A stretch of DNA of 43,981 nucleotides. Source: a virus. Taxonomy: Duplodnaviria > Heunggongvirae > Uroviricota > Caudoviricetes. Shown here in pieces: positions 4,473-40,132 of the stretch. Under the pieces are notes generated by a model. It did not search any database, had not been told where the DNA came from, and saw only the letters and a program-made list of their open reading frames with translations. The stretch spans positions 1 to 43,981 of the IMG/VR virus record IMGVR_UViG_3300045988_012512; one strand, 5' to 3'. The first letter of the stretch is position 1; every line of letters starts with the position of its first letter. The translations under genes and the position numbers were made by a program.

Positions 4473-5873
4473 TTAACCGTCCACATTAAAATCAATACGG
4501 GTGATATATTTACTACCCCACGCAGAATCGGCCTGAGGGATAGTCGCGTAATCATCTACAGCCTGAACGTTTACCACAGAGCCATCGGAATAGGTTATGT
4601 TGATGCTTGTCGCGCCATTCATGGTTACTTTCGCGGACGCTGTCGAGCGGGTGACAACAACGGCATCGGTTATTACCGGGGATGTTGTATTTTGGTTTAC
4701 CTCTACAGTAGCCGCGGATAATTTAACCCCTGAAACGCCATCCCCCGTAAATGACCCGGTAACTCCGTCTGAATATATCCATGCGTCCATCCGTATGCTC
4801 ATTGTTTTATCTTCTGTTGCGGTAATCGTCTCCGATATTCGGAACCACCCTCCGCCTACGTCGGTTACATCTGTACCGCCTGGGCCGGAATAAATGCTAC
4901 CATCCCGCAAATCAACAACTGCTGAGCCTAATACTGTAGGAAGTTCTCGCACGTACATCCGTATGAAATTGTATCCGTTTGCTTTTGCGAAGAAACTAAA
5001 AGTAACCATGTCGCCAACACCAACGCTAACATCTACAGTCTGGTTTATTAGGTGGTTACCGCTTGTGGCGGTAGCAGTTACGTCGTACGTGCCTGCGGCT
5101 GTTAAAACACCTGTTTCAGATACTGATACACTCACCAAACCTTTGTTCCAGTTTGACGAAGAGAAATTGCTTGAATATAGGAATCTGTTAGTTACTGATG
5201 CCTCCGGTGGCACACGCCCAACTGCCGAGCCATCGATAAACGTAAGTGGCCATTCACCGGCGGCGGACTGCACAAGATTGCCGTTTCGGTTGATGTAATA
5301 AACCTGCGGCCCGTCATACACAATGCGGCTATCAAGAGTCGACGCCAGAAGGTTAATCGGCGGGTATCCTGCAGGCCCTTCATTGCTCCAGATGCGCGGG
5401 AACGTCGTCTCGTAGTTCGCATATATTTTCAGGAAACTACCCAGACAGTCCCCGTAACAACCGTACAAATCCGGAAGATTGTTAATCAGGCACTGGTTCT
5501 CAAGGTCCTGGAACGGCGATTTCTCGGCGGTTGCCGTGAAAGTAATCGTCCAGTTAATGCCATCTTCGGTGGACTCAGCGATGGTGGACGTGATTGTTAC
5601 CTGGTAATCCTCAATACCCATGCCGAAGTCGTGCGCCATCCAGAAACTTGACGCACCGCCGTCTACTTTTTCTAGGAACGACAGAAATGCCTGCCGCCCC
5701 AGCGCCGATGTAATCAAGGTTACGCTCACCGGGAACACGTCGTAATATGTGTCGCGTCCCTGACGCACCCCGCCACCGGCTAAATCTACACTCCAGACGT
5801 TGTTGCGTCTGGTCATTGAGTAGCCTTTCGACACAATAGGCTTAAGGCTACGTGGGAAATATAAGTCGGTCAT
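4473..5873 (-). CDS. minor / distal tail protein with C-terminal Ig- or carbohydrate-binding-like extension
   Basis: 466-aa ORF directly downstream of tape measure; stop/start overlap at 5873. Confidence 0.45.
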   Translation of the reverse strand: MTDLYFPRSLKPIVSKGYSMTRRNNVWSVDLAGGGVRQGRDTYYDVFPVSVTLITSALGRQAFLSFLEKVDGGASSFWMAHDFGMGIEDYQVTITSTIAESTEDGINWTITFTATAEKSPFQDLENQCLINNLPDLYGCYGDCLGSFLKIYANYETTFPRIWSNEGPAGYPPINLLASTLDSRIVYDGPQVYYINRNGNLVQSAAGEWPLTFIDGSAVGRVPPEASVTNRFLYSSNFSSSNWNKGLVSVSVSETGVLTAAGTYDVTATATSGNHLINQTVDVSVGVGDMVTFSFFAKANGYNFIRMYVRELPTVLGSAVVDLRDGSIYSGPGGTDVTDVGGGWFRISETITATEDKTMSIRMDAWIYSDGVTGSFTGDGVSGVKLSAATVEVNQNTTSPVITDAVVVTRSTASAKVTMNGATSINITYSDGSVVNVQAVDDYATIPQADSAWGSKYITRIDFNVDG

Positions 5874-8161
5874 TATTTAAACCCCGGCGCGTTTCTTGTG
5901 GCCTTGCGGGCCTTGCTAATCTTACTGTTGCTGTTCTGCAAAGACGCGGCGACTTGCTCCTCTATGATGATACGCAGACGGCCTTCATCATCTTGTTCTG
6001 TGGATACGTTGCCGATTTGAGAACTTGTGTTGTTTACGATAGTAACATTAGACGGGCCGGAAGAAGACCCGTTTTGCCCCATAATTTCTTTCATCTGCTG
6101 CGCGGTGCGCACGCGTGATGCACCAGCTGGCATGATAACTTCTGGTTTACCACGTTCTGCGATGGTGGAAGCCTGCCCCGCAGATAACTGACCGCCCTGT
6201 TCACGCGCGGACCGGATAGCGGAAACCTGCGCCATACCTGCACCAACGGCAGCGGCAGCGGCTACAGGGGCCAGGAACGGGCCAACTACAGGTATAGCTG
6301 CCGTTGACTTGTACGCCTCAATAGCTGCGGTGTACGTGGCGATAGTGGCCTGTACGATAGCGAATGCCTTGTACGCGCCAGAAGCCTCACCCAACGCAGA
6401 CCCGATGTTTGAGGCCATGTTACCAAAGGCCGTTGCCGTTGCATCGGCACGTTTGGTTGCGTATTGCTCGTTGATGGCGTTAAGAGCGGCCTGATACTGC
6501 TTCTCGCTAATCAAACCCTGCTCGCGGTACTTATCCGCTACCGCCAGTTTCTGCTGTTCCTGGATGTCGAGAAGCTCAAGCTCAGTAGCGTTCTGACCCA
6601 TAATCTGAGCCATGAAGTCGTCACCTTTCTGCTGCTTTTCCTGGGCTTCTTTCTGGCGTTTATCCAGTTCATCTTGTCGTTTTTGCCCGGCTTCGAGGAC
6701 GATAGCTGTTTTAGCTTGTTCATATTCTTTCAGGGACAACGCGCCCTGGCTGTAGAACTCTTTTGCCTTAGCCAGTTTCTGCTGTTCCTGCGCGTCGATA
6801 GCCTTTAACTCGTCGTTGTTCTGACGGGCCAAAGTGTCGAGGTAATCTTGCGCCTGATTCCGCAATTGCTCTGCTTTCTTGGCGGCGGCTTTTGCTGCTT
6901 TATCGTCGGTTGTCCCCACCCCACCAGTTCCGCCCTTTTTATTAACAAGGCTGGCTAAGTCAATTTCTTGCTTCTTACGCTCGTCGTACTGCTTGCGCTG
7001 TTCCTCAATTTCTTTCTTACGCTGTTTCGAGCGGTCAGTTATTGCCTGTGATTCTGCCTCCGCGCGTTTTATGCTAGCGGCGTACGCGGCGTCGGCCTCT
7101 GCGGTCAGGTTTTTAAATGTTAGCGCCGCCGTTTTGCTCGGGTCAAACACGTCGGCAAGGGTCTGCCCTAACGCTACAGCGTAATCGTCGATGCGCTGGA
7201 ACCACGCAATAACCTCGTGAAATGTCTGCTGGATGTCCGGCAACCACTCACGGATAGCATCCGGTATAGTCCCCAGCGAGTCAGACATATCAACGGATTT
7301 GTCCTCGGTATCGAATGCCAGGTCATTCAAGGCGTCGGAAATAAACTTGAATGACTCATTGAACAGCGCCACCCAATCCTGGAGCGTGGCGGCTATCTCA
7401 TTAGACGCGATGGCGTCGGTAAGCGCCGTGATAGCGTCTTCCGCTGTGGCCGCTTGCTCACCTACGGCGTCGCCAAAACCAGACTGCGCCACCGCAAGAA
7501 CAAGACCGTCGAAGGAGTCGGCGAGGCTCGATAACTGGCCGTCTAGCGTCTTAGAGCGCGTCTCCATCGCCCCGGCAAAATCGGTGTTGCCGATATTCAG
7601 GAGGTATTTCTGAATCTCTTCGGAGTTCTTCTTAACCGTGGTCGTTACGCCGCGGAACGTGAACGAAACTGTATCTGCCTGTTGCGACGACTTGATGCCG
7701 AACTCTTTTAAGCGCTCAAATTCAAATGTACTGGCGTCGGCAACTGCCTCAATCATCTGATTAAGGTCTTTACCCATAGCCGCCGCGGTGTTGCCGTAGG
7801 AGATTAACGCCTCTTTGCTGGGGTTCAGACCGAGCGCAACGAGCTTGGTAAACCCCTCTACCGCCTGATTGAGACCATACGGGGTCTCTTTTGCGAACTG
7901 TTGCAGGACGCTGAAAGCCTTAGCCGCGTTCTCGGCGCTCCCGGTCATCGTGATGAGGCCGGAGTTCAGCTTATCGAAGTTTCGCTGGGAATCCACCAGC
8001 GCGCTGAACACCTGCTTAGCGGTTTCCAGACTGACAACGGCGGCGGCGGCGGCCCCCGCCGCCTTGGTAAGCCCGTTCAGTTGTGATGTGGTTTTATCGA
8101 CGCCGGTCGATGATACTCGTACTATCAAGCTAGCGGTATCAGCCATGATTTCTACCTTCAA
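5873..8161 (-). CDS. tail tape measure protein
   Basis: 762 aa, Ala/Gln-rich with long coiled-coil segments; located between chaperones and tip genes. Confidence 0.8.
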   Translation of the reverse strand: MKVEIMADTASLIVRVSSTGVDKTTSQLNGLTKAAGAAAAAVVSLETAKQVFSALVDSQRNFDKLNSGLITMTGSAENAAKAFSVLQQFAKETPYGLNQAVEGFTKLVALGLNPSKEALISYGNTAAAMGKDLNQMIEAVADASTFEFERLKEFGIKSSQQADTVSFTFRGVTTTVKKNSEEIQKYLLNIGNTDFAGAMETRSKTLDGQLSSLADSFDGLVLAVAQSGFGDAVGEQAATAEDAITALTDAIASNEIAATLQDWVALFNESFKFISDALNDLAFDTEDKSVDMSDSLGTIPDAIREWLPDIQQTFHEVIAWFQRIDDYAVALGQTLADVFDPSKTAALTFKNLTAEADAAYAASIKRAEAESQAITDRSKQRKKEIEEQRKQYDERKKQEIDLASLVNKKGGTGGVGTTDDKAAKAAAKKAEQLRNQAQDYLDTLARQNNDELKAIDAQEQQKLAKAKEFYSQGALSLKEYEQAKTAIVLEAGQKRQDELDKRQKEAQEKQQKGDDFMAQIMGQNATELELLDIQEQQKLAVADKYREQGLISEKQYQAALNAINEQYATKRADATATAFGNMASNIGSALGEASGAYKAFAIVQATIATYTAAIEAYKSTAAIPVVGPFLAPVAAAAAVGAGMAQVSAIRSAREQGGQLSAGQASTIAERGKPEVIMPAGASRVRTAQQMKEIMGQNGSSSGPSNVTIVNNTSSQIGNVSTEQDDEGRLRIIIEEQVAASLQNSNSKISKARKATRNAPGFK

Positions 8162-8471
8162 ATATTGCTTCTAAGCCCATGATAATGTCTATCTCGAACA
8201 GGCTAAGCTGTTTTTGCGTAACATCGAGATAGGCTTTCAGGTCTTGCCACGTAACAGATTCTCTTGCAAACAATACTACAGCGTCCTCGCGCACGTGTCG
8301 CGTAAACTTAATGTCGCAATACGTCTCAAAGGTGGATATAAAAAGGGGCGGGCATTCTGGCCCACCCCGTCGCGCTGCACGTTTTTTCTTATCGATTACA
8401 CCCATCGCGATAAGCGCCTGTTCGTGTCCGTCGGCGATAGAATCAAACTCTCTGATTTTATGCTTATCCAC
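8139..8471 (-). CDS. tail assembly chaperone extension (GT-like, possibly made by -1 frameshift from 8504..8920)
   Basis: ORF in the -1 frame relative to the upstream chaperone; frame is open back to about 8522 and overlaps the chaperone stop. Confidence 0.4.
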   Translation of the reverse strand: MDKHKIREFDSIADGHEQALIAMGVIDKKKRAARRGGPECPPLFISTFETYCDIKFTRHVREDAVVLFARESVTWQDLKAYLDVTQKQLSLFEIDIIMGLEAIFEGRNHG

Positions 8472-8503: not shown

Positions 8504-8920
8504 CTACTTTTCCTGTAATGCTTTACGCTCGGCGTTATGGAACGCCGCCACCTGTGTACCTAATGCCTTGAATTGGTCGAGCAATTTGCTAAACGCTTCC
8601 TTAGAGAAAGGCTCGTCAAAGCTCCAGCCGTTTACTACTTCTGCCGCAAGTTGCCGGTTGAGGTCTTCTGCCAGTTCGTTAACCGCCATGTTATATTCAG
8701 TATAATCACCAGAGTCTTTGGCAGCTTTTTCCAGTTCTTCAAAACGTGCCAGCCCGCGGCGGTACGCAATAATGAAAGCACGCCCCGCTTTAACGGCGAC
8801 ATCCGCATCGGGACTTACAACGTTAAGCCATTCACCGGAGTCTTCGCCGTTTGGCAGCAGAATGGGCATCTTCTTGCCTACCAGTGCTTTCTCTTCGAAA
8901 TAAAAATCAGAAAGTTTCAT
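8504..8920 (-). CDS. tail assembly chaperone (G-like)
   Basis: 138-aa acidic ORF just upstream of tape measure; AAGGA RBS. Confidence 0.5.
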   Translation of the reverse strand: MKLSDFYFEEKALVGKKMPILLPNGEDSGEWLNVVSPDADVAVKAGRAFIIAYRRGLARFEELEKAAKDSGDYTEYNMAVNELAEDLNRQLAAEVVNGWSFDEPFSKEAFSKLLDQFKALGTQVAAFHNAERKALQEK

Positions 8921-9028
8921 TCTTTAATCCTTTGGTTAAGAGGTTACAGGTTAACGATAAATGCGCCAGACGGGAACCACCCGCTTTTCGTGTGCGACAC
9001 TAGGCGCAAACTTATTCTATCACATTAC

Positions 9029-9057
9029 TTGCACACCCCAATATAATAGGGTACTAT
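9029..9057 (+). promoter_or_regulatory. sigma70-type promoter (TTGCAC-17-TACTAT) for the plus-strand island
   Basis: Canonical spacing; same promoter architecture recurs at 18527, 29673 and 30772. Confidence 0.55.
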
Positions 9058-9087
9058 TCACTTACACCAACAATGAAGGGGTTTAAA

Positions 9088-9279
9088 ATGTCCAGTTTAC
9101 CAGTTTCCTTAATTCTGTTTGCACTGCTCGCTTATTTCGCGCCTTTCCTGGTTGCGTACTTCCGTAACCATAAAGCGAAGTTAGCGATATTCATGGCTAA
9201 TCTGTTTCTTGGTTGGGTTCTGCTGCCGTGGGTATTTATCTTAATCTGGGCGTGCAACTCGAATGTCAAAGAGAAGTGA
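9088..9279 (+). CDS. superinfection-immunity-like small membrane protein
   Basis: Two hydrophobic helices with AYFRNH...ANLFLGWVLLPWVFILIWA, resembling the Imm superinfection-immunity family; AAGGGG RBS before the ATG at 9088 (ORF track starts at 9073). Confidence 0.55.
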   Translation: MSSLPVSLILFALLAYFAPFLVAYFRNHKAKLAIFMANLFLGWVLLPWVFILIWACNSNVKEK

Positions 9280-9317
9280 GCTAGTATAGGACAAATCCTA
9301 AACACGAGGAAGTAAGC

Positions 9318-10448
9318 ATGGCCCAGAAGAAAATAACCGACGAACAGTTACAGGAAGAATTGAACGCCGGGATGAAGAATGTAGACATCGCCCGTAAATA
9401 CGGCATCTCAGACCGCGTTATTCGTATCCGTAAAGCGAAGCTGGCTAAGAAAGGCGTAGGTCACGGGCGAGACGTTAGTCACCTTGTGCCCGATGGCTAC
9501 AAGATTAAGGGTACATCGTCTCTGGTGGACGAGTTCGGCAACACTAAGTTGCAATGGGTTAAGACCGACACCGATGCCGAACGTCAGGTAGAGTTGATGA
9601 AAGCCGTAATCGAAGGAATGAAATCAGAGATTACGCCAGTCGCCCCTGTTAAAGCGGCACGCGCCAAACGTGACGATAAACTACTCAATCTTTACACTGT
9701 GTCTGATTTTCATCTCGGTATGCTGGCATGGGCCGATGAGAGCGGCGACGACTGGGATATGAAGATTGCAGAAGACCTGTTCTCTCGATGGTTCGACGCG
9801 GCGTTTCAGAAAGCACCGGACGCGGGAACAGGAGTTATTAACCTTCTGGGCGACCTCGCTCACTTCGATAGTCTGGATGCAGTTACACCTGCAAGCGGGC
9901 ATGTTCTTGATGCGGACACGCGCTATCAGAAACTTGTACGCTATATGATTCGGATGGTCCGCCGTGTCATTGATATGGCGCTGGTTAAGCATAAAAATGT
10001 TCGCTTGCTTATCGTGCAAGGGAACCACGACGAAAGCGGAATGATTTGGTTGGCTGAGATGTTCAGTACGCTGTATGACAACGAGCCGCGGGTGTTCGTC
10101 GATACGTCGCCGGATGTTTACAAGATGGTGCAACACGGCAAAACGACGCTGTTCTTTCATCACGGTCACAAAGCACGCTTCGACGCTATCGAACCAGTTA
10201 TGATTGCCAAGTTCCGCAAAGCGTTCGGCGAGAGTATTTACAGCTACGCCCACGTAGGCCATCTGCACCACCAGAAGATTGTAGAAAGCCGTAACATGAT
10301 TGTTGAGCAACACCGCACCTTAGCGGCTAAAGACGCCTACGCCTCTCGCGGCGGATGGATGTCGGGCCGCAGTGCAAATGTAATTACTTATAGCGCCGAA
10401 TATGGCGAGGTCGCACGTTTAACTATTTCACCGGAGATGCTGGGATGA
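9318..10448 (+). CDS. HTH domain fused to calcineurin-like (SbcD/Mre11-type) metallophosphoesterase
   Basis: N-terminal HTH (VDIARKYGISDRVIRIRKAKL); five phosphoesterase motifs SDFHLG, GDLAHFD, GNHDE, HHGH, GHLHH. Confidence 0.75.
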   Translation: MAQKKITDEQLQEELNAGMKNVDIARKYGISDRVIRIRKAKLAKKGVGHGRDVSHLVPDGYKIKGTSSLVDEFGNTKLQWVKTDTDAERQVELMKAVIEGMKSEITPVAPVKAARAKRDDKLLNLYTVSDFHLGMLAWADESGDDWDMKIAEDLFSRWFDAAFQKAPDAGTGVINLLGDLAHFDSLDAVTPASGHVLDADTRYQKLVRYMIRMVRRVIDMALVKHKNVRLLIVQGNHDESGMIWLAEMFSTLYDNEPRVFVDTSPDVYKMVQHGKTTLFFHHGHKARFDAIEPVMIAKFRKAFGESIYSYAHVGHLHHQKIVESRNMIVEQHRTLAAKDAYASRGGWMSGRSANVITYSAEYGEVARLTISPEMLG

Positions 10449-10933
10449 AAGATATTGTAATTTTCGATTTAGACGGGACATTGGCCGACGGTACCCATCG
10501 CTTACACCTGTTACCAAAAGATAACTACGGAGAAACGTGGGCGTGGAAGCCATTTAACATGGCCTGCAAAGATGACGCTCCGATATACGACAATATCCAT
10601 TTGTGTAGCGTACTGTGGCATTCCGGACTTACTATAATTATCCTTACCGGGCGAAGTGATGACGCTGAGGAGGAGACTCGCGAATGGTTACGAGAGAATA
10701 ACGTTAGGTTTGACACGCTAATCATGCGCAGCAAACACGACAACAGAAAAGACATCGTAATTAAAGAAGAGGTGTTGCGTGCTTTCGGACTGGAAAGAAT
10801 CTTGTGTGCGTTCGACGACTCTCCAGCGGTAATAAAGCATTTCCGTGACCTCGGCATAACCGCACACGCAGTTACCGAATACGACTGTAACGGGAACTCT
10901 ACACACTTAAAACCACACGGGAGCGATAAATAA
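10445..10933 (+). CDS. HAD-superfamily phosphatase (T4 polynucleotide kinase 3'-phosphatase-domain-like)
   Basis: FDLDGTLA, IIILTGRSDD, RKDIVIKEEVL and DDSPAV motifs; ATGA overlap with the upstream gene. Confidence 0.7.
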   Translation: MKDIVIFDLDGTLADGTHRLHLLPKDNYGETWAWKPFNMACKDDAPIYDNIHLCSVLWHSGLTIIILTGRSDDAEEETREWLRENNVRFDTLIMRSKHDNRKDIVIKEEVLRAFGLERILCAFDDSPAVIKHFRDLGITAHAVTEYDCNGNSTHLKPHGSDK

Positions 10934-11487
10934 TGGCTAAGGTAATTATTCTTAATGGCCCTGCGGGTTGCGGGAAAGACACGCTTGCTATGGCGCTGGT
11001 AGAAATGGGCTTTGCGAAAGGAACTACCAGTTTCAAGAATCCAATGTTCAATATTGCTTTGGCAGCGTTAGGCCAGGATGCTTACCACGAATTTCTCGAC
11101 GGCTACGACGACCGGGCGCGGAAAGAAAAACCCGAGGGTTTTCTTAATGGGTTGTCCCGCCGCCAGTTAATGATTGCCATTTCTGAGCAATTCATTAAAC
11201 CGGTATTCGGCGATGATTATTTCGGTAAGTATCTTGCTGAAAACTTGCCTGACGGCGACGAAGTTTTTGTAGTGTCCGACGGTGGATTCGCCAGTGAAGT
11301 TGCCCCTATCGTCGCCGCGGGGCATGACGTGCGAATCGTCCGCCTCCATCGTGACGGCTATACGTTCATCGGCGATAGCCGTGGCTATCTGTACGATGTT
11401 AGTGGTGTAAAAGATTACGACACCTACATCATACCGGGTGACGTTAAATCGAACGTTATAGACATTGCTTTAAAATTAGGTTTGTAA
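10933..11487 (+). CDS. deoxynucleoside monophosphate kinase (T4 gene 1-like P-loop kinase)
   Basis: Walker A GPAGCGKDT; further blocks resemble T4 dNMP kinase; TAATG overlap with the HAD gene. Confidence 0.65.
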   Translation: MAKVIILNGPAGCGKDTLAMALVEMGFAKGTTSFKNPMFNIALAALGQDAYHEFLDGYDDRARKEKPEGFLNGLSRRQLMIAISEQFIKPVFGDDYFGKYLAENLPDGDEVFVVSDGGFASEVAPIVAAGHDVRIVRLHRDGYTFIGDSRGYLYDVSGVKDYDTYIIPGDVKSNVIDIALKLGL

Positions 11488-11491
11488 GAAA

Positions 11492-11518
11492 AAGGCCCCG
11501 AAAGGGGCCTTAGTTTTA
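11492..11518. terminator. bidirectional intrinsic terminator (AAGGCCCC-GAAA-GGGGCCTT)
   Basis: 8-bp GC stem flanked by A-run and T-run; lies between convergent genes. Confidence 0.7.
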
Positions 11519-12688
11519 TGCGTAGGTGATACGCTGGATAACAATAGACGACTGGTACTGGTTGCCAGTAGCCTGGCCTTCAATGGACTGAGTGATTGAC
11601 TCGGGTCCGCCAATCTCTGGTGTTACTGCTGTAAGCTCTGCGCGTTTCAAACTGAAAGACATCGCCCCGTTTACCCCAGCCAGAATAGAGTTAATCTCTA
11701 CCTGCTGTTCGTTGATAAACTTCTGGATCATCGCCATGTCGTACAGCTTGCCAGAGATAGAGAATGTGTTAGCTGCGCGTCCACGTTCGACGAACGCCAC
11801 GCTACTGTTACCGAGTTCGAACTGCGCGGAAGCTCCGTTGTCGTTGGTGATGGTGAGAGTATCGCAACGCAACGGCGTGGAGCCATCGAACACCGACACA
11901 TCTACCGACGAGAACGGCTCATCGGTGAACGTAACCTGAGAGAAATCAGAGCCAGACGGCGGCGCGGTAAGAATCTCCTGACTCAGGCCGATGAACGGGA
12001 AGCTGCCGGTGACCATGGCGTTAACCGCCTGCTCTACGGTAAAGCCAGAGATTTCCACACCTTTGGTCAGCATGTACGCGTCCGGGTTACCACACTGGCC
12101 CTTGAACCACGTCAGGATGGAGAACGTCTTACACGCGTTACCGGTTTCCAGCTTGTCGCCAGTTTTTGCGTCAGTGGTTACTGTCTCTGCTGTCAGCGTG
12201 TGCTGAATACCTGCGCCCGTAACTACCAGAGCGGAAACCGCGGTCACGATAAACGGTTTTGCGTTGTCGCCGGTTAAGTCGGTGAACGCAATCAGGTCGC
12301 CAACTTCTACACCGTCAGTAATGAAGCTACCGGCAGCGCGGGTGAATGTTTTACCTGCTGGGGCGACCGTAATTTCGGCGCCAGTAATCTCTACCCCAGC
12401 TTGCCACGTAGAAGTCATCGCTCCCGCAAGGAAATCATCCTGGCTACGAGAGCTAAGTTCGATGGCGTACTCCCCGCTAACCTGTTTGTTACCGGTTCGG
12501 ATGGATGTAGTTTCACGGCTGCCGTCTAGTTCGTTGGAAGTCAGCGCATCGCGGGTTACGGCAGGAACACCGCCAGTGTTACGCAACGGCGACCAGACAG
12601 GGTTAGCCGGTGTTACGCCCGGGGTAGTTTCCGCCACATAGAATTGCGCGGTATTCGCGCCCTTAAAAGGAGTTGTAGCCATATTCAC
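11516..12688 (-). CDS. major tail (tube) protein
   Basis: 390-aa ORF between neck genes and chaperones, followed by a terminator. Confidence 0.6.
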   Translation of the reverse strand: MNMATTPFKGANTAQFYVAETTPGVTPANPVWSPLRNTGGVPAVTRDALTSNELDGSRETTSIRTGNKQVSGEYAIELSSRSQDDFLAGAMTSTWQAGVEITGAEITVAPAGKTFTRAAGSFITDGVEVGDLIAFTDLTGDNAKPFIVTAVSALVVTGAGIQHTLTAETVTTDAKTGDKLETGNACKTFSILTWFKGQCGNPDAYMLTKGVEISGFTVEQAVNAMVTGSFPFIGLSQEILTAPPSGSDFSQVTFTDEPFSSVDVSVFDGSTPLRCDTLTITNDNGASAQFELGNSSVAFVERGRAANTFSISGKLYDMAMIQKFINEQQVEINSILAGVNGAMSFSLKRAELTAVTPEIGGPESITQSIEGQATGNQYQSSIVIQRITYA

Positions 12689-15562: not shown

Positions 15563-15817
15563 TTATGATTCGATTACACCGGCGGCGCGTAGTTGCGCCA
15601 GAAGTGCATTTAGTTTAGTGCCTACGGCGTTAACCGCGGTCTGTGCGGACGTAGCAACCGCGGCGACATCCCCACCAGTAACGGTTTGCGTACCGATGTT
15701 CGCTACCGCAGCACCCTTCTTAACCAGTCCGGCGGTTTCTGCCGTTGCTTCTGGCACAACATTACTGAAATCGGTGTTCTCAAGGCTGCGAGGCAAGCCT
15801 TTTCCGGTCTTAGCCAT
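15563..15817 (-). CDS. small Ala-rich structural protein
   Basis: 84-aa ORF with AAGAGGT RBS, directly downstream of the capsid gene terminator. Confidence 0.35.
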   Translation of the reverse strand: MAKTGKGLPRSLENTDFSNVVPEATAETAGLVKKGAAVANIGTQTVTGGDVAAVATSAQTAVNAVGTKLNALLAQLRAAGVIES

Positions 15818-15837
15818 AATTTACCTCTTAGTAAAAG

Positions 15838-15860
15838 AAAAGGGGACCGAAGTCCCCTTA
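15838..15860 (-). terminator. intrinsic terminator after the major capsid gene
   Basis: Minus strand reads AAGGGGACTTCGGTCCCCTT followed by a T-run. Confidence 0.6.
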
Positions 15861-15875
15861 GATTATACATACAAA

Positions 15876-16925
15876 TTAAGCACCAACACCAGTTACCAGG
15901 AAGGCAATAGGTACATGCTTACGGTCAACAACACGGTTCCAGTTGGAGGCGTTCGCCAGGTCCTGCCAGGAAGCAGAGCGGGCGATAGTCTCGGTCCCGT
16001 TGCCAGTGATTACCGCGCTGGTGAAGCTGTAACCAAACGGATGCAGCAACCAGGTCTTACGGGTCCACAGGGTTTCAACGCCACCACCGTTACCACGAGA
16101 CGCTTCGCGTTCGTATTCCAGCGGGTTAGACGGGTTGCCCTCGCCGTAACCGATAGCACCGTTACCGAAGATGATGGAGATGAACTTACGGCTCGGGCCG
16201 GTGCCGACTACGGTCATGCTGTCGTCAACAATCACGCGGTAGCCCTGGTAAGTAGCAAACATGGTGTTGTTATCGGCGTCGCGGATGAAGTCGATAAGCT
16301 GCTGTTTACGTGCCTGCGCATATACGAAGCTGTGCATCGCGATAGCGCCCAACACTTCACCGCCGTTGCCCATCAGCGCATCACCCATAGTCTGGGTAGC
16401 GTCGATGAACGCGCCCGAGTCGAAGCCCAGGGTGGCGGACACGTCCACTACCATGTCGTTCTGCTCGTGGTATGCGTCGGTAGCGGCTACGTTGTCGTTG
16501 TACAGACCGAGCGCGGTAGCAATCAGACGGCGTTGTGCCTGACGCTGCCAGAAGTTATCCAGACGGGACGCTACGGATTGCAGCGGGTTCTGGCTGGTCA
16601 GTTCAACAGTCAAATCCGCCTGGCCGAAACCTTCGTTCAGATAAGCCACGCGAACATCCATCTCACCGGTTTGCACGTTACGTGGGGTGGCGACATCCTG
16701 ATACACATCGTTCGAGTAGTTCGGTTCGATAGAGGTATCAATCGCTTTCCAGTACGGCAGAACAGCTTTGTTGGACGGGCCGTTTGCGATAGCGGCGGCG
16801 TACGGAGTCGAGGTAAGGATACCGGACTGGAAGAACGCGGTTTTCTCTACCGGGTCCTCTGTCATGTAGGACAGGATTACCGATTCTTTACCAGTTACGA
16901 TATCGCCGATAGTAGTAATTGCCAT
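15876..16925 (-). CDS. major capsid protein
   Basis: 349-aa ORF downstream of scaffold and followed by a terminator. Confidence 0.75.
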   Translation of the reverse strand: MAITTIGDIVTGKESVILSYMTEDPVEKTAFFQSGILTSTPYAAAIANGPSNKAVLPYWKAIDTSIEPNYSNDVYQDVATPRNVQTGEMDVRVAYLNEGFGQADLTVELTSQNPLQSVASRLDNFWQRQAQRRLIATALGLYNDNVAATDAYHEQNDMVVDVSATLGFDSGAFIDATQTMGDALMGNGGEVLGAIAMHSFVYAQARKQQLIDFIRDADNNTMFATYQGYRVIVDDSMTVVGTGPSRKFISIIFGNGAIGYGEGNPSNPLEYEREASRGNGGGVETLWTRKTWLLHPFGYSFTSAVITGNGTETIARSASWQDLANASNWNRVVDRKHVPIAFLVTGVGA

Positions 16926-17683
16926 TATTTTTTCCTCAGGGCTTTAAGTTGCCGTTCAAATTCGGCAGGGTTCGATTCGTACAGAGCGATACGCTCCGCT
17001 TCACTCATGTCTTTAAACGCTGGTGCGGCCCCGCCGCCTTTGCTACCGGAAGCCCCGCCGCCGGAAGCTGCATTTGCTTTAATCAAATGCGAAAACGCTT
17101 TGTGTTCGCGCAGGTATTTGCGGAACTGTTCCGGGTCAGTCGTGATTACGTTGCCATCTGCACCGACAAACTTAGTAACCACGTCATCACCCTCGAACTC
17201 AGTCTTAACGAACGGAGCAAGAATGTCTACTGCTTCCGGGGTAATAAAATCACCTGCGAAAGAGCCTAACACCGCTTTACGTTCGCTGCCGAGGATGCGC
17301 TCTGCCATTTTGGAGATGCGACCATCTTTCTCGGCTAACACCGGGTCATACTGGCTACGAATCGTCTTTTCGAACTCGTCCATCTTACCGGCGGCTTTTA
17401 GCGCCTCCTGGTGCGCGCGCTGACGTTCCTCTTCGGCCTCTTTTGCTTTACGGGCGGCTTCTTTCTTCTCCGCCAGCAATGCTTCCTGATTGGCCTTAAG
17501 TCCGGCAACTTCTTTCTCAATCATCGCCTGAACTTCTTCAGCGGTGAACATTTTTGGAGCGTCGCCACCGCCAGATTTATCTTCTGCCCCAGCTTCTTCC
17601 TGGAACGGATAGTGTAAAAAACGATTCATAGTCAGTATGTCCCCTGGACGTTGGAATCCGGGCCTCCCGGATTTACATGTCAA
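16925..17683 (-). CDS. scaffolding protein
   Basis: Charged, helical, coiled-coil-rich ORF directly upstream of the capsid gene; real start may be the ATG at 17629. Confidence 0.55.
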   Translation of the reverse strand: MTCKSGRPGFQRPGDILTMNRFLHYPFQEEAGAEDKSGGGDAPKMFTAEEVQAMIEKEVAGLKANQEALLAEKKEAARKAKEAEEERQRAHQEALKAAGKMDEFEKTIRSQYDPVLAEKDGRISKMAERILGSERKAVLGSFAGDFITPEAVDILAPFVKTEFEGDDVVTKFVGADGNVITTDPEQFRKYLREHKAFSHLIKANAASGGGASGSKGGGAAPAFKDMSEAERIALYESNPAEFERQLKALRKK

Positions 17684-26968: not shown

Positions 26969-27457
26969 TCAGCCTTTCACCGCACGTCCAATAGCAACCG
27001 CCTCTTGCCACGGTTTACCGTCGAACAGTGCCAGACGTCCAGCGGTACGGCGGCGCAAGCCAAGTAATGGTTTGCCGTTCTGGTTGATGAACAGCGCCAG
27101 CTTGGCCCGCAGTGTCGCAACGTCGCCTGAGCGCAGTGCCTTACCGGTACCGGTAGTAGCTGCGATAACGCCAGCACCCGCGTTAAATACCAGGTCGCAC
27201 ACTGCATCGAACTGCGCCTGTGTCAGCGAATGGTGTGCGGCGGCGTCAACCGCAGCTACGGCCTTAGCCATGTCGCGATTCAGTAACAGGAGGCCTTGGC
27301 CTGGTGTGATGGTCTGCCCGGCCTTAACATGTGGGCCATAGCTTCCGTACCCAATAGTAAGGTACTTCTCATTTGGCGTAGCACGATACGCAGTCCCGCG
27401 GAACCCCTCGAACGCGGCGGTGAAATGCAGTCCATTATCTGAAATATTTCGAGACAC
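26969..27457 (-). CDS. endolysin (GH24 lysozyme / T4 lysozyme-like)
   Basis: LHFTAAFEGFRGTAYRATPNEKYLTIGYG catalytic motif; GGAGG RBS before GTG at 27457 (ORF track extends to 27508). Confidence 0.75.
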   Translation of the reverse strand: MSRNISDNGLHFTAAFEGFRGTAYRATPNEKYLTIGYGSYGPHVKAGQTITPGQGLLLLNRDMAKAVAAVDAAAHHSLTQAQFDAVCDLVFNAGAGVIAATTGTGKALRSGDVATLRAKLALFINQNGKPLLGLRRRTAGRLALFDGKPWQEAVAIGRAVKG

Positions 27458-27707
27458 GCTTATGTCCTCCGTATGACAGCCACGCCTGACGAATCTGGCG
27501 CAGCGCAACTAATGTGATTAATGTCTCAGGCAGCGTTGGTGACACGCTGCCCTGTAACAGGTGGATACATCCGGCGGCGCAGACGATAGCAGTCAGGATA
27601 TAGAGCACCCGGCCGAACAGCCCGTCATCAACGCTGGGATGGTACACATTAAACAGCGATGTACCCCCGATTGCCAGCATACCGCCGAACCAGAATAACT
27701 CATTCAT
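27435..27707 (-). CDS. holin-like membrane protein
   Basis: About 90 aa from ATG 27707 (MNELFWFGGMLAIGG...) with 2-3 hydrophobic helices, immediately upstream of the endolysin. Confidence 0.55.
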   Translation of the reverse strand: MNELFWFGGMLAIGGTSLFNVYHPSVDDGLFGRVLYILTAIVCAAGCIHLLQGSVSPTLPETLITLVALRQIRQAWLSYGGHKRVSKYFR

Positions 27708-37882: not shown

Positions 37883-40132
37883 ATGAGTTACCTGTTCTTA
37901 GACTTTGAAACATTCTCCGAAGCCGATTTGAAGAAAGTCGGCTCCTATGCTTACGCTGAGCACCCAACTACCGAAGTGCTTATCTGCACATACGCTTTTG
38001 ACAACGAGCCAGTGCAGATATGGGATTGCACCGACGGCAGCGACATGCCTGGCGATTTGCACCGCGCACTACGCCGCCTGGTTAAACCAAACAGTCGCAT
38101 TAAGATGGTGTGGCATAACGGTGGACTTTTCGACAGGCTCATCATGAAAAACTGCTGGGACTTTGATATTCCGGTAAGCAACACCATTGATACTATGATT
38201 TGGGCGTTTCGCCACGCGCTGCCGGGTTCGCTAGATGCGCTGTGCGAAGTGCTTGGCGTGTCCGCCGACAACGCGAAAGACAAACGCGGCAAGGCGCTTA
38301 TTCAGCGTTTCTCTAAACCGACACCGAAGAACTACAAAATCCGCCGATACACCGCCGAAACGCACCCGGATGAGTGGGCGCTGTTCATCAAGTACGCCGT
38401 GAGCGACATCACTGCGATGCGTGAAGTCTTCCATAAGCTGCCGCGTTGGGGTAACTCAGAGTTCGAAGACCGTGTACTGGAACTGGACCAGTTAATCAAT
38501 GACCGCGGGTTTAAGGTCGACGTTGCACTGGCGGAAGCCGCGATTGAAGCCGTGGAGAAGCACAAGGCGCAGTTACAGGAAGAAGCCCAACGTAAATACG
38601 GCGGGTCGCTTACCGGTAAAGACTTTCTGCCTATTCTGCGTGAACTCGCTCCTGCGCACAGAATCCACAACGCGCAGAAGTCGACGCTGAATGACCTGCT
38701 GGCTGATGATGATTTACCGGACGACGCTCGCGCGATTATCGAAATGCGCCTCGGGGCGGCGTCCACTGCGTCAACGAAATATAACCCGCTGCTGCTAGGA
38801 CGCTCGTCGGACGACCGCCGTCGTGGTTGTATCCAGTACGGAGGCGCTAAGCGTACATTACGGTTTGCGGGTAAAGGCTTCCAGCCACAGAACCTCGCAC
38901 GCGGGTACTATCACGACGACCCGAAGAATAAAAAGAAGAAAGTACGTTATGACTGGATGTCAGAGAAGGACTGGTGGAGAGTAACGCACCCATTGTCCTA
39001 CGGAATTGACCTGCTGTTTAAAGGCCGTGCGCATCGCCGTTTTGATGTGGCAAAACTGACAGCATCTACGGTGCGTAGCTGCATCATACCGGAAGCCGGG
39101 CATAAGTTTGTCGTAGCTGATTACTCTAACGTTGAAGGTCGCGGGTTGGCATGGCTGGCAGGAGAAGAAACCGCTCTCGATACCTTCCGTGCGGGATTGG
39201 ATATTTACTGTGTAACCGCGGGTAAGATGTTCGGCATGGACCCTGATTACATTCTCGAAAGCCGTAGTGACCTACGCCAGATAGGTAAAGCATGTGAATT
39301 GGGCCTTGGCTATGCTGGTGGTGTCGGTGCTTTCGTTCAGTTTGCTAAGAACCTCGGCTTAAACCTGGTCGATATGGCTAAAACAATGGACGGGACTTTC
39401 CCCGACCATATATGGGCCGCTACTGCACGCGGATACGAGTGGGCGCGTATTCAGGAAGCCAAGCGACCGCCACGCCCCGGTGAAAAAGATGACCGGCCAT
39501 CATATATTCTCGATAAGAAAGTGTGGCGCACATGTGATGCAATCAAGCGTATGTGGCGCGAGTCTCACCCTGAAACAGTAGCATTCTGGCGTGATATTGA
39601 AGACGCAGCTATGGCGGCTATCCGCAACCCAGGTAAAGAGTTCACTGCAGGTCCGCGGGGAGTTAAGTTTTCGCGTAACGTAGAAACAGATAACAACGGC
39701 AACAAAGTCGCTGGTTGGTGGTTGCGGATGACGTTGCCGTCGGGTCGCGTTATGTCATACCCCGGCGTCGGGTTAAGTGTATCGAAAGAGACAGACGAAG
39801 ACGGAAAGGTGTCTACTAACGTGCGCATCAAGTACCAGGGGGAAAACCAGTTAACCCGTCAGTGGGGCTTCCAGTACACCTACTCCGGTAAACTGGTGGA
39901 AAACTGCACTCAGGCGCTGTGCCGTGATTTGCTGGCTAACGCCCTGCTGAATGTAGAAGCAAACGGATATCCAATTGTGCTTCATGTTCACGATGAGATT
40001 ATCTGCGAGACCCCAGATTTACCAGAATACAATGTCGCAGAGCTTGGGCGGTTGATGTGCGAATTACCGGAATGGGCCGAAGGGTTCCCTCTTGTAGCGG
40101 AAGGTGCGGAGATGATGCGTTATGCCAAGTAA
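37883..40132 (+). CDS. family A DNA polymerase with 3'-5' exonuclease domain
   Basis: 749 aa; N-terminal exonuclease motif FLDFETFS; C-terminal VLHVHDEI polymerase motif. Confidence 0.85.
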   Translation: MSYLFLDFETFSEADLKKVGSYAYAEHPTTEVLICTYAFDNEPVQIWDCTDGSDMPGDLHRALRRLVKPNSRIKMVWHNGGLFDRLIMKNCWDFDIPVSNTIDTMIWAFRHALPGSLDALCEVLGVSADNAKDKRGKALIQRFSKPTPKNYKIRRYTAETHPDEWALFIKYAVSDITAMREVFHKLPRWGNSEFEDRVLELDQLINDRGFKVDVALAEAAIEAVEKHKAQLQEEAQRKYGGSLTGKDFLPILRELAPAHRIHNAQKSTLNDLLADDDLPDDARAIIEMRLGAASTASTKYNPLLLGRSSDDRRRGCIQYGGAKRTLRFAGKGFQPQNLARGYYHDDPKNKKKKVRYDWMSEKDWWRVTHPLSYGIDLLFKGRAHRRFDVAKLTASTVRSCIIPEAGHKFVVADYSNVEGRGLAWLAGEETALDTFRAGLDIYCVTAGKMFGMDPDYILESRSDLRQIGKACELGLGYAGGVGAFVQFAKNLGLNLVDMAKTMDGTFPDHIWAATARGYEWARIQEAKRPPRPGEKDDRPSYILDKKVWRTCDAIKRMWRESHPETVAFWRDIEDAAMAAIRNPGKEFTAGPRGVKFSRNVETDNNGNKVAGWWLRMTLPSGRVMSYPGVGLSVSKETDEDGKVSTNVRIKYQGENQLTRQWGFQYTYSGKLVENCTQALCRDLLANALLNVEANGYPIVLHVHDEIICETPDLPEYNVAELGRLMCELPEWAEGFPLVAEGAEMMRYAK

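What the first reader, a model, noticed from the sequence alone, without database searches (positions are those of the whole stretch)
9318..10448. Fusion of an HTH domain to an SbcD/Mre11-type metallophosphoesterase with no SbcC partner
All five calcineurin-like motifs are present, and the first (VSDFHLG) looks like the SbcD/Mre11 nuclease type rather than the GDxHG of Ser/Thr phosphatases. The roughly 50-residue N-terminal HTH suggests DNA targeting or autoregulation. No SbcC-like ATPase is encoded anywhere in the window, so it may be a stand-alone nuclease or a phosphodiesterase acting on a small-molecule signal.
Basis: partly seen in the sequence, partly recalled or inferred. Interest (0 to 1): 0.6.

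Follow-up and report, generated by a model that had tools for sequence, protein, structure and literature searches.

The report
Phage T1 gp16-like HTH–metallophosphoesterase enzyme
The gene is real and encodes a DNA-binding helix-turn-helix domain tethered to an intact Mre11/SbcD-like metallophosphoesterase, but it is one more copy of a very common, already catalogued and still uncharacterised phage protein family (phage T1 gp16, PHROG 704), so it is solid but not surprising.

Summary
Window 9318-10448 (+) is a 376-aa ORF with a strong ribosome-binding site. It has an N-terminal three-helix HTH, a flexible linker, a beta-hairpin plus helix, and a metallophosphoesterase (MPE) core whose five motifs are all invariant across 59 divergent relatives.

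The window is a complete Kagunavirus (Guernseyvirinae) genome, and no SbcC/Rad50-like ATPase is encoded anywhere in it.

It is the ortholog of phage T1 gp16 (45% identity over the full length) and a full-length member of PHROG 704. That family occurs in 2,051 phage records and about 4,600 clusters at 50% identity. No characterised member was found in the literature.

The family gene usually sits between the replication module and the lysis or packaging module. The neighbouring HAD phosphatase and P-loop kinase are a facultative, separable pair.

Most likely it is a stand-alone, DNA-tethered nuclease or phosphodiesterase. The exact substrate is unknown. Interest is modest.

The parts
9019..9047 (+). 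Sigma-70-like promoter candidate (ATCACA-17-TATAAT) upstream of the + strand cassette
   Evidence: Consensus scan gives 10 of 12 matches. This is a consensus match only, not proof of function.
9073..9279 (+). First gene of the cassette: small membrane protein of the superinfection immunity (Imm) type
   Evidence: Pfam Imm_superinfect E 9.3e-13; phrog_1039 E 4.7e-23.
9306..9312 (+). Ribosome-binding site GAGGAAG, 5 nt upstream of ATG 9318
   Evidence: Read directly from the sequence.
9318..10448 (+). HTH-MPE gene (376 aa), ortholog of phage T1 gp16 and member of PHROG 704
   Evidence: ORF confirmed. phrog_704 E 2.5e-167 covering 3-375 of the protein and 1-389 of the 390-position profile. 45% identity over the full length to T1 gp16.
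9318..9455 (+). N-terminal tri-helical HTH (aa 1-46), LuxR/GerE / sigma-70 region 4-like
   Evidence: AlphaFold helices at 8-16, 21-28 and 32-44. Family-level Pfam hits to Sigma70_r4_2 and GerE. Family profile hits GerE 1fse at E 0.007.
9456..9497 (+). Flexible linker (aa 47-60)
   Evidence: Block-mean pLDDT is 65-70, and residues 49-51 fall below 50.
9498..9623 (+). Family-specific beta-hairpin (aa 61-85) plus helix (aa 87-102). It includes the conserved G74 and W80, and is retained in members that lack the HTH.
   Evidence: The Campylobacter phage F357_148 protein matches phrog_704 profile positions 78-389.
9672..10445 (+). Metallophosphoesterase catalytic core (aa 119-376). The protein ends with the core: there is no capping domain and no Rad50-binding helices.
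9699..9719 (+). MPE motif I, VSDFHLG (D130, H132)
   Evidence: Invariant in alignment A1; coordinates.
9843..9869 (+). MPE motif II, LLGDLAHFD (G178, D179; H182 and D184 conserved in at least 90% of sequences). It has the GDLxH form seen in Mre11.
   Evidence: The non-significant HMMER alignment to T. maritima Mre11 pairs it with TGDLLHS.
9882..9923 (+). Family-specific conserved loop VTPASGHVLDADTR (T190, L197, D198) following motif II
   Evidence: Its role is unknown; a substrate-binding loop is an inference.
10017..10037 (+). MPE motif III, QGNHDES (N236, H237)
   Evidence: Invariant.
10152..10175 (+). MPE motif IV, FFHHGHKA (H282)
   Evidence: Invariant.
10254..10274 (+). MPE motif V, VGHLHHQ (G314, H315, H317)
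   Evidence: Invariant or nearly invariant.
10445..10933 (+). HAD phosphatase of the polynucleotide kinase-phosphatase (PNKP) type. Its start overlaps the MPE stop codon (ATGA), suggesting translational coupling. It is a facultative neighbour.
   Evidence: Pfam HAD_PNKP E 3.3e-20. PDB sequence hits to Pnkp1 4xrp and T4 PNK 1ltq. Junction sequence. Absent from 14 of 24 close Kagunavirus-type loci.
10933..11487 (+). P-loop kinase-like protein (GPAGCGKDT), labelled dNMP kinase in PHROG 139. Its start overlaps the HAD stop codon (TAATG). It is a facultative neighbour.
   Evidence: phrog_139 E 7.1e-45. 42% identical to T1 gp62 and 50% identical to Vibrio phage Vp670 gp37.
11492..11511 (.). Bidirectional intrinsic-terminator-like hairpin that closes the cassette and the convergent major tail gene
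   Evidence: Terminator scan finds it on both strands.

Best explanation
**What it is.** This is the Kagunavirus ortholog of phage T1 gp16. It is a two-module phage enzyme. A LuxR/sigma-70-region-4-type HTH is joined by a flexible linker to a catalytically intact binuclear metallophosphoesterase. That core most resembles the nuclease branch of the superfamily (PolD DP1, Mre11, SbcD).

**Most likely mechanism (inferred, not shown).** The HTH holds the enzyme on DNA. The MPE core then acts as a stand-alone, ATPase-independent, Mn2+-type phosphodiesterase or nuclease on DNA. Candidate substrates are DNA ends, 3' termini, branched or blocked structures, or host DNA. The likely timing is the window between phage replication and the late (lysis/packaging) phase.

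**What it does not need.** It does not work with an SbcC/Rad50 partner. The adjacent HAD 3'-phosphatase and P-loop kinase are an accessory, separable pair, not obligatory partners.
For: **Shown.**
- The ORF and ribosome-binding site are real.
- All metal-binding and catalytic residues are invariant across 59 sequences that are 31-50% identical to the window protein. The enzyme activity is therefore under selection.
- The AlphaFold model is confident (pLDDT 92.5), with a low-confidence linker at aa 45-60.
- Motif II has the Mre11-type GDLxH form, with H182 conserved in at least 90% of sequences.
- The N-terminal module is always a DNA-binding HTH, but its class varies (sigma-70 r4, GerE, Fis-type, HTH_23, MarR-like, sometimes two in tandem) while the MPE stays constant. 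This argues that DNA targeting as such is what is selected.
- HTH-less members keep the hairpin plus MPE (Campylobacter phage F357_148, next to a DNA ligase). The enzyme is therefore the core function.
- No SbcC/Rad50 is encoded in the genome.

**Context.**
- The family gene lies among DNA-metabolism genes, after the replication module and before the lysis or packaging module. This holds in T1, Warwickvirus, Webervirus, PY100, RcGingersnap, 14 of 46 non-redundant viral loci, and prophage-like bacterial loci.
- A precedent exists for a stand-alone phage MPE that damages DNA: mycobacteriophage A10ZJ24 Gp48 (PMC12287305). It appears to be a different MPE lineage; that is inferred from its motif I lying at residue 10, and its sequence was not compared here.
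Against: - No biochemical or genetic data exist for any family member (literature searches found none).
- Sequence-profile similarity to Mre11 is not significant (E 0.15-0.35).
- The HTH is the least conserved part of the protein (20% identity against 44% for the MPE core). No DNA target was found: there are no repeats or palindromes in 8900-9330.
- The family also occurs in integrated prophage-like loci. This argues against wholesale host-DNA degradation as the general role.
- MPEs can act on nucleotides rather than polymers, as in the PUA-Cal-HAD defence system (PMC12871103).
Confidence: 0.45

Rival explanations
1. **Small-molecule or nucleotide phosphodiesterase.** The MPE hydrolyses a nucleotide-type substrate, such as a cyclic nucleotide immune signal, dNDP/dNTP, or an Ap4A-like alarmone. 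The HTH serves only for autoregulation or localisation.
For: - MPE plus HAD pairs act on dNTP/dADP in the PUA-Cal-HAD defence system.
- The neighbours in this phage are a HAD phosphatase and a protein labelled dNMP kinase.
Against: - The best structural matches are polymer nucleases.
- The DNA-binding module is near-universal but interchangeable in class. That pattern is hard to explain by autoregulation alone.
- The protein matches no model in PADLOC, a library of host anti-phage defence proteins; that library does not cover phage counter-defence enzymes.
- The HAD/kinase pair is facultative and lies 36 kb away from gp16 in T1.
Confidence: 0.17
2. **Late-gene (lysis/packaging) transcription regulator.** The sigma-70-region-4/LuxR-like HTH activates or times the late operon. 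The MPE domain acts as a coupled enzymatic or sensing module.
For: - Position is strikingly constant. The gene sits at the end of the early/replication block and immediately before holin-endolysin or HNH-TerS-TerL-portal, the slot that Q-type or RinA-type regulators occupy in other phages.
- Family members hit Sigma70_r4_2 down to E 1.5e-9.
- There is a weak hit of aa 5-36 to phrog_836, 'late transcriptional activator' (E 9e-4).
Against: - HTH-less members exist.
- The HTH is the least conserved region, while the catalytic residues are invariant.
- In this very phage the gene is not next to the start of the late operon or to the endolysin (26969-27508). It sits inside a reverse-strand cassette between tail genes.
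- Lambda also keeps an MPE (NinI) just upstream of Q with no regulatory role (established knowledge, not tested here). Position alone is therefore weak evidence.
Confidence: 0.12
3. **Nucleic-acid end-healing enzyme.** The MPE acts as a 2',3'-cyclic phosphodiesterase or 3'-phosphoesterase, like the MPE module of Clostridium thermocellum Pnkp. It works with the adjacent PNKP-type HAD 3'-phosphatase and P-loop kinase to repair RNA or DNA breaks made by host defence nucleases.
For: - The MPE, HAD and P-loop genes are translationally coupled here (overlapping ATGA and TAATG junctions).
- The same trio occurs in PY100, Webervirus and ECBP5-like phages, where the MPE is only 42-55% identical.
- The HAD protein matches Pnkp1 and the T4 PNK phosphatase domain.
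- An HTH-less family member lies next to a DNA ligase in Campylobacter phage.
- The P-loop homolog in Vibrio phage Vp670 sits between another MPE and a ligase.
Against: - HAD and P-loop are absent from 14 of 24 close Kagunavirus-type loci and from most distant loci: HAD is found in 7 and P-loop in 4 of 46 non-redundant loci.
- In T1 the pair is 36 kb from gp16.
- The motifs are not lambda-phosphatase/CthPnkp-like: there is no GDxxDRG and no GNHE.
- No ligase is encoded in this genome.
- The P-loop protein is labelled a nucleotide kinase, not a polynucleotide kinase.
Confidence: 0.12
4. **Canonical SbcD/Mre11 that borrows the host SbcC, or a NinI-like protein Ser/Thr phosphatase.**
For: The MPE motifs and fold are shared with both groups.
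Against: - There is no capping domain and no SbcC/Rad50-binding C-terminal helices; the protein ends with the MPE core.
- There is no NCBIfam SbcD hit.
- The PPP signature motifs are absent.
Confidence: 0.05

Closest known systems
Phage T1 gp16 (YP_003929.1) / PHROG 704 'DNA repair exonuclease' family
   Same: - The same full-length architecture: HTH, linker, hairpin, MPE.
- 45% identity over 377 aa.
- phrog_704 matches at E 2.5e-167 over the whole profile.
- The family is present in Drexlerviridae, Guernseyvirinae, PY100, Casjensviridae, Vibrio and other phages: 2,051 records in all.
   Different: - Only the genomic position differs. Here the gene sits in a reverse-strand cassette between tail genes; in T1 it lies between Dam and the lysis genes.
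- The family name is a bioinformatic label. No member has been characterised.
Mre11 / SbcD nucleases (T. maritima Mre11 3qg5/4o43, S. aureus SbcD 7dog, E. coli SbcD 6s6v)
   Same: - The motifs share the forms DxHLG, GDLxH, GNHD and GHxH.
   Different: - There is no capping domain and no Rad50/SbcC-binding helix-loop-helix.
- The genome encodes no ATPase partner.
- An N-terminal HTH and a beta-hairpin are added.
- Sequence similarity is not significant (E at least 0.15), with 13-18% identity.
Archaeal PolD small subunit DP1 (3'-5' proofreading exonuclease, 5ihe)
   Different: - DP1 works inside the PolD holoenzyme and carries an OB-fold.
- This protein has an HTH instead.
- The family occurs in phages that have no annotated polymerase of their own, such as T1, so it is not tied to a polymerase.
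Mycobacteriophage A10ZJ24 Gp48 (stand-alone phage MPE; PMC12287305)
   Same: It is a phage-encoded, partner-less MPE with phosphodiesterase activity. It damages host genomic DNA and is needed to overcome host defence. This makes it a functional precedent.
   Different: - Gp48 is short and has no HTH; its motif I is at residue 10.
- It probably belongs to a different MPE lineage (inferred from that architecture).
Lambda NinI / PPP-type phosphatases and the C. thermocellum Pnkp MPE module
   Same: They share the MPE superfamily fold. Lambda NinI likewise sits at the end of the early region (established knowledge, not tested here).

Membership tests
PHROG 704 / T1 gp16-like HTH-MPE family | Significant full-length sequence similarity to the family profile and to T1 gp16 | tested here: met
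   phrog_704 E 2.5e-167, with residues 3-375 matching profile positions 1-389 of 390. BLASTP to T1 gp16 gives 45% identity at E 3e-115.
PHROG 704 / T1 gp16-like HTH-MPE family | Architecture of N-terminal HTH, linker, beta-hairpin/helix, then MPE core of about 260 aa | tested here: met
   AlphaFold secondary structure and pLDDT; alignment A1; Pfam scan of the family members.
Calcineurin-like metallophosphoesterase superfamily | Five motifs: DxH, GD, GNH(D/E), H, GHxH | tested here: met
   D130/H132, G178/D179, N236/H237, H282 and G314/H317 are invariant in 59 sequences. The Pfam Metallophos hit for this single protein is sub-threshold (19.1 bits against a cutoff of 21.5). The fold match is unambiguous.
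Mre11/SbcD nucleases | MPE nuclease core with a motif II histidine (GDLxH) and a DxHLG motif I | tested here: met
   [not shown]
Mre11/SbcD nucleases | C-terminal capping domain following the nuclease domain | tested here: not met
   [not shown]
Mre11/SbcD nucleases | Rad50/SbcC-binding helix-loop-helix, and an SbcC/Rad50 ATPase encoded alongside | tested here: not met
   There is no C-terminal extension. All large ORFs of the 44-kb genome are assigned to other functions. None is annotated in the part of phage K-02 that was read.
Mre11/SbcD nucleases | Significant sequence-profile match to SbcD/Mre11 models | tested here: not met
   No NCBIfam SbcD or Mre11 hit at E up to 1. The family profile against PDB Mre11/SbcD gives E 0.15-1.4.
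Mre11/SbcD nucleases | Mn2+-dependent exo/endonuclease activity on DNA | not testable with these tools
   This requires biochemistry.
PPP Ser/Thr protein phosphatases (lambda NinI-like) | The signature GDxHG ... GDxxDRG ... GNHE, and closest fold similarity to PPP enzymes | tested here: not met
   [not shown]
Class III cyclic-nucleotide phosphodiesterases (Rv0805/CpdA/GpdQ) | Closest structural and sequence relationship to the cNMP phosphodiesterase clade | tested here: inconclusive
   [not shown]
LuxR/GerE / sigma-70 region 4 HTH | Helical HTH bundle with a significant match to GerE or Sigma70_r4 models | tested here: inconclusive
   This protein alone gives GerE E 0.026, below the cutoff, and FixJ E 0.003. 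At family level, Sigma70_r4_2 matches 11 of 59 members (best 1.5e-9) and GerE matches 6 of 59 (best 2.4e-8), and the profile hits GerE 1fse at E 0.007. An HTH is certain; its subclass is not fixed, because other members hit HTH_8, HTH_23 and MarR.

The most novel reading that the evidence does not exclude
T1 gp16-type proteins could be a distinct, ATPase-independent class of DNA-tethered Mre11/DP1-like nucleases. They would carry out a still-unrecognised, widely conserved step at the transition from replication to the late phase in tailed phages. Possible roles are trimming or unblocking DNA ends or branches so that packaging or late transcription can proceed, or coupling DNA processing directly to late-promoter activation through the sigma-70-region-4-like HTH. 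The constant position of the gene just upstream of the lysis or terminase genes in virulent and temperate phages alike would then reflect function and not only synteny.
Probability: 0.2. Interest if true: 0.6.

Novelty: new member of a known kind. Interest (0 to 1): 0.3.

Why it matters
The family is one of the more widespread phage proteins of unknown function. It occurs in 2,051 of 50,697 phage records and in about 4,600 clusters at 50% identity. It includes the classic phage T1 and many Klebsiella, E. coli and Salmonella phages of the kinds isolated for phage therapy.

Every copy is auto-annotated 'DNA repair exonuclease' without evidence. Knowing whether it is a nuclease, a signal-degrading phosphodiesterase or a regulator would correct thousands of annotations. 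It could also reveal how small siphophages process DNA, or time late functions, without an Mre11-Rad50 machine.

For this particular window, however, nothing goes beyond what the family already shows.

Tried and rejected
- **Single-sequence PDB search.** It gave no meaningful hit. Family profiles gave only non-significant Mre11 hits.
- **PADLOC.** No match for the MPE, HAD or P-loop proteins.
- **DNA target for the HTH.** No direct or inverted repeats were found in 8900-9330. A genome-wide motif search was not attempted.
- **Obligatory MPE-HAD-kinase 'heal' module.** I rejected this reading as a general rule. The pair is absent from 14 of 24 close loci and from most distant loci. In T1 it lies 36 kb away from gp16.
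- **Vibrio phage HH109/Vp670 gp35.** This is an early 'calcineurin-like phosphoesterase' in RNA-seq data (PMC9040624). It proved unrelated to this family by BLASTP, so its timing cannot be transferred. Only the P-loop neighbour is homologous.
- **Campylobacter phage F357_148.** It is annotated 'recombination endonuclease'. I considered it as a possible T4 gp47 (SbcD) ortholog, but it is an HTH-less PHROG 704 member.
- **Identity of the P-loop protein.** A profile search against the PDB gave only generic Walker-A hits.
- **Trans-acting proofreader for the phage DNA polymerase.** I rejected this reading because T1-like phages carry the gene but have no annotated polymerase.
- **afdb50 fold library.** It was unavailable.
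- **Literature.** Nine searches found no characterised family member.
Full report
**Where the window comes from.** The 43,981-bp window is essentially a complete Kagunavirus (Guernseyvirinae) phage genome. The region 9000-11500 is 93% identical at the DNA level to E. coli phages BEU33, phiEc4 and K-02, and 287 phage records match it. The annotated relative K-02 has the same gene order across the roughly 34.5 kb of its genome that was read.

**Checking the observation.**
- The ORF at 9318-10448 (+) encodes 376 aa. ATG 9318 is the first start after the upstream in-frame stop. A GAGGAAG ribosome-binding site lies at 9306-9312.
- For this single protein, Pfam support is weak. Metallophos scores 19.1 bits against a cutoff of 21.5, and GerE has E 0.026.
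- The family evidence is overwhelming. PHROG 704 matches at E 2.5e-167 over the whole profile. tblastn finds the protein in 2,051 phage records. An exhaustive search of cluster representatives finds 4,626 clusters at 50% identity, most of them 370-420 aa long.
- In an alignment of 59 representatives that are 31-50% identical to the window protein, D130, H132, G178, D179, N236, H237, H282, G314 and H317 are invariant. The active site is therefore under purifying selection and the enzyme is almost certainly active.

**Anatomy.**
- AlphaFold2, run with that alignment, gives a confident model: mean pLDDT 92.5 and pTM 0.79.
- The model has a three-helix HTH (helices 8-16, 21-28, 32-44) and a low-confidence linker (aa 45-60).
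- Next comes a beta-hairpin (61-85) with a helix (87-102), carrying the conserved G74 and W80.
- The MPE core runs from 119 to the C-terminus.
- Nothing follows the core. There is no Mre11/SbcD capping domain and no Rad50/SbcC-binding helices.
- At family level the N-terminus hits Sigma70_r4_2 (11 of 59 members, best E 1.5e-9), GerE (6 of 59, best 2.4e-8), HTH_8, HTH_23 and others. The family profile hits the GerE structure at E 0.007.
- Longer members carry two HTHs, for example P0133 with Sigma70_r4 plus a MarR-like domain.
- Some members lack the HTH but keep the hairpin and MPE, such as Campylobacter phage F357_148.
- The HTH is the least conserved region: 20% mean identity to the window protein, against 44% for the MPE core.

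**Which kind of MPE.**
- LpxH (13.8), MJ0936 (13.6) and further Mre11/SbcD entries (12.5-13.4) follow.
- The cNMP phosphodiesterase Rv0805 scores 11.9. The best PPP protein phosphatase, PP5, scores only 9.1.
- Foldseek agrees. Its top hits are T. maritima Mre11 4o43, DP1 and Rv0805.
- Motif II has the GDLxH form, with H182 conserved in at least 90% of sequences. The non-significant HMMER alignment to T. maritima Mre11 pairs DxHLG with SDWHLG and GDLLH with TGDLLHS.
- The signature PPP motifs (GDxHG, GDxxDRG, GNHE) are absent.
- Membership in the SbcD/Mre11 family fails on the capping domain, the Rad50-binding tail, the ATPase partner, and significant sequence similarity.

**No SbcC partner.** All large ORFs of the genome are assigned:
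- Structural and packaging genes: tail protein, tape measure, portal, head morphogenesis, major head, major tail, tail fibre, terminase.
- Replication and recombination genes: helicase-primase, a phrog_69 exonuclease, a Gp2.5-like SSB, DNA polymerase, helicase.

These assignments come, and the K-02 annotation agrees over the part of that genome that was read.

**Local context.**
- The gene is the second of four + strand genes inserted between the - strand tail assembly chaperone (8504-8920) and the major tail gene (11516-12688).
- The four genes are an Imm-type superinfection immunity protein (9073-9279), the HTH-MPE, a PNKP-type HAD phosphatase (10445-10933) and a P-loop kinase-like protein (10933-11487).
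- The HAD protein hits Pfam HAD_PNKP at E 3.3e-20 and, in the PDB, Pnkp1 and T4 PNK. The P-loop protein hits phrog_139, labelled 'dNMP kinase'.
- The last three genes overlap at ATGA and TAATG junctions.
- A sigma-70-like promoter candidate lies at 9019-9047. A bidirectional terminator-like hairpin at 11492-11511 closes the unit.

**Is the trio a functional unit?**
- The same MPE-HAD-P-loop order recurs in PY100 and Webervirus KpV522 and in ECBP5-like contigs.
- However, the HAD and P-loop genes are absent from 14 of 24 close Kagunavirus-type loci. Among 46 non-redundant loci, HAD is found in 7 and P-loop in 4.
- In phage T1 the ortholog gp16 (45% identity) lies about 36 kb from the Pnk (gp64) and P-loop (gp62, 42% identity) pair.
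- The HAD/P-loop pair is therefore a separable accessory module, not an obligate partner.

**Family-wide context.**
- The most frequent neighbour is an endolysin on the same strand within about 1.5 kb, in 14 of 46 non-redundant viral loci.
- In T1 the order is helicase, gp21, Dam, three small genes, gp16, terminator, HNH, holin, endolysin, spanin. Warwickvirus, Webervirus, PY100 and Rhodobacter phage RcGingersnap are similar.
- The family also occurs in bacterial chromosomes in prophage-like contexts.
- In a Bordetella locus the order is RepO-like, DnaC-like, Holliday junction resolvase, three small ORFs, HTH-MPE, HNH, TerS, TerL, portal.
- Six further loci show the same placement after replication genes and before lysis or packaging genes.
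- The gene thus habitually marks the early-to-late boundary.

**Interpretation.**
- The invariant active site and the HTH-less members make catalysis the core function.
- The near-universal but interchangeable DNA-binding modules argue that being on DNA matters.
- The closest folds are polymer nucleases, and the neighbours are DNA-metabolism genes.
- I therefore favour a stand-alone, ATPase-independent, DNA-tethered MPE nuclease or phosphodiesterase. It would act on DNA ends or structures, or on host DNA, around the switch from replication to late functions (confidence about 0.45).
- A stand-alone phage MPE that damages host DNA has a precedent in mycobacteriophage A10ZJ24 Gp48 (PMC12287305). 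That protein probably belongs to a different lineage; its sequence was not compared here.

**Rivals.**
- A nucleotide or signal phosphodiesterase with an autoregulatory HTH (0.17).
- A late-gene regulator using the sigma-70-r4-like HTH (0.12). It is supported by the striking synteny. It is weakened by the HTH-less members, by the poor conservation of the HTH, and by the atypical position of the gene in this very phage.
- An end-healing enzyme working with the HAD and kinase proteins (0.12).
- A canonical SbcD or a protein phosphatase (0.05).

None can be excluded without experiments.

**Literature.** Nine full-text searches found no characterised member of this family. An apparent lead proved unrelated by sequence: the early-expressed 'calcineurin-like phosphoesterase' gp35 of Vibrio phage HH109/Vp670.

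**Verdict.**
- The feature is the ordinary form of a very large, already catalogued phage family (T1 gp16 / PHROG 704). Proteins 97-99% identical are already public.
- It is a new member of a known, functionally uncharacterised kind. Interest is 0.3.
- The family as a whole would repay experimental study.

Noticed in passing
window 8139-8471 (-) and 8504-8920 (-): Two adjacent - strand ORFs hit consecutive parts (positions 152-259 and 2-138) of the same tail-assembly-chaperone profile, phrog_15027. This is the pattern expected for the conserved programmed translational frameshift (G/GT-like) upstream of the tape measure gene.
   Followed up: no
window 37883-40132 (+), aa 467-561: The family A DNA polymerase carries an extra hit to phrog_93, 'endonuclease' (E 1.6e-13), inside the polymerase match. 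This may be an inserted nuclease-like segment.
   Followed up: no
window 10445-11487 (+); L118 (T1) 4948-6534: The PNKP-type HAD phosphatase and the GKDT P-loop kinase-like protein travel together as a pair in many phages (1,533 records for the P-loop protein). They look like a split kinase-phosphatase module. In T1 an HNH gene is inserted between them, and the pair lies far from gp16.
   Followed up: partly
L090 (Vibrio phage Vp670) 27457-30420: A 50%-identical homolog of the window's P-loop protein, annotated 'phosphomevalonate kinase', sits between an unrelated MPE and an ATP-dependent DNA ligase in a T7-like phage. This is a second, independent MPE plus kinase (plus ligase) neighbourhood.
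   Followed up: partly
window 9019-11511: The cassette Imm, HTH-MPE, HAD, P-loop is transcribed against the surrounding tail operon and splits it between the major tail gene and the chaperone/tape-measure genes. It has its own promoter-like site and a bidirectional terminator-like hairpin. Its content varies among near-identical Kagunavirus genomes: Imm, HAD and P-loop come and go while the MPE stays.
   Followed up: partly
L091, L092, L094, L096, L098, L100, L113 (bacterial genome contigs): Family members occur in chromosomes of Pseudomonas, Xylophilus, Luteimonas, Dyella, Pseudoxanthomonas, Bordetella and Noviherbaspirillum, in prophage-like contexts. The gene always lies between replication genes and the lysis/terminase block.
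   Followed up: partly
window 15618-17423 (+): A 601-aa ORF lies antisense to the major head gene (15876-16925) and the scaffold gene (16925-17683). It is almost certainly a spurious shadow ORF.
   Followed up: no
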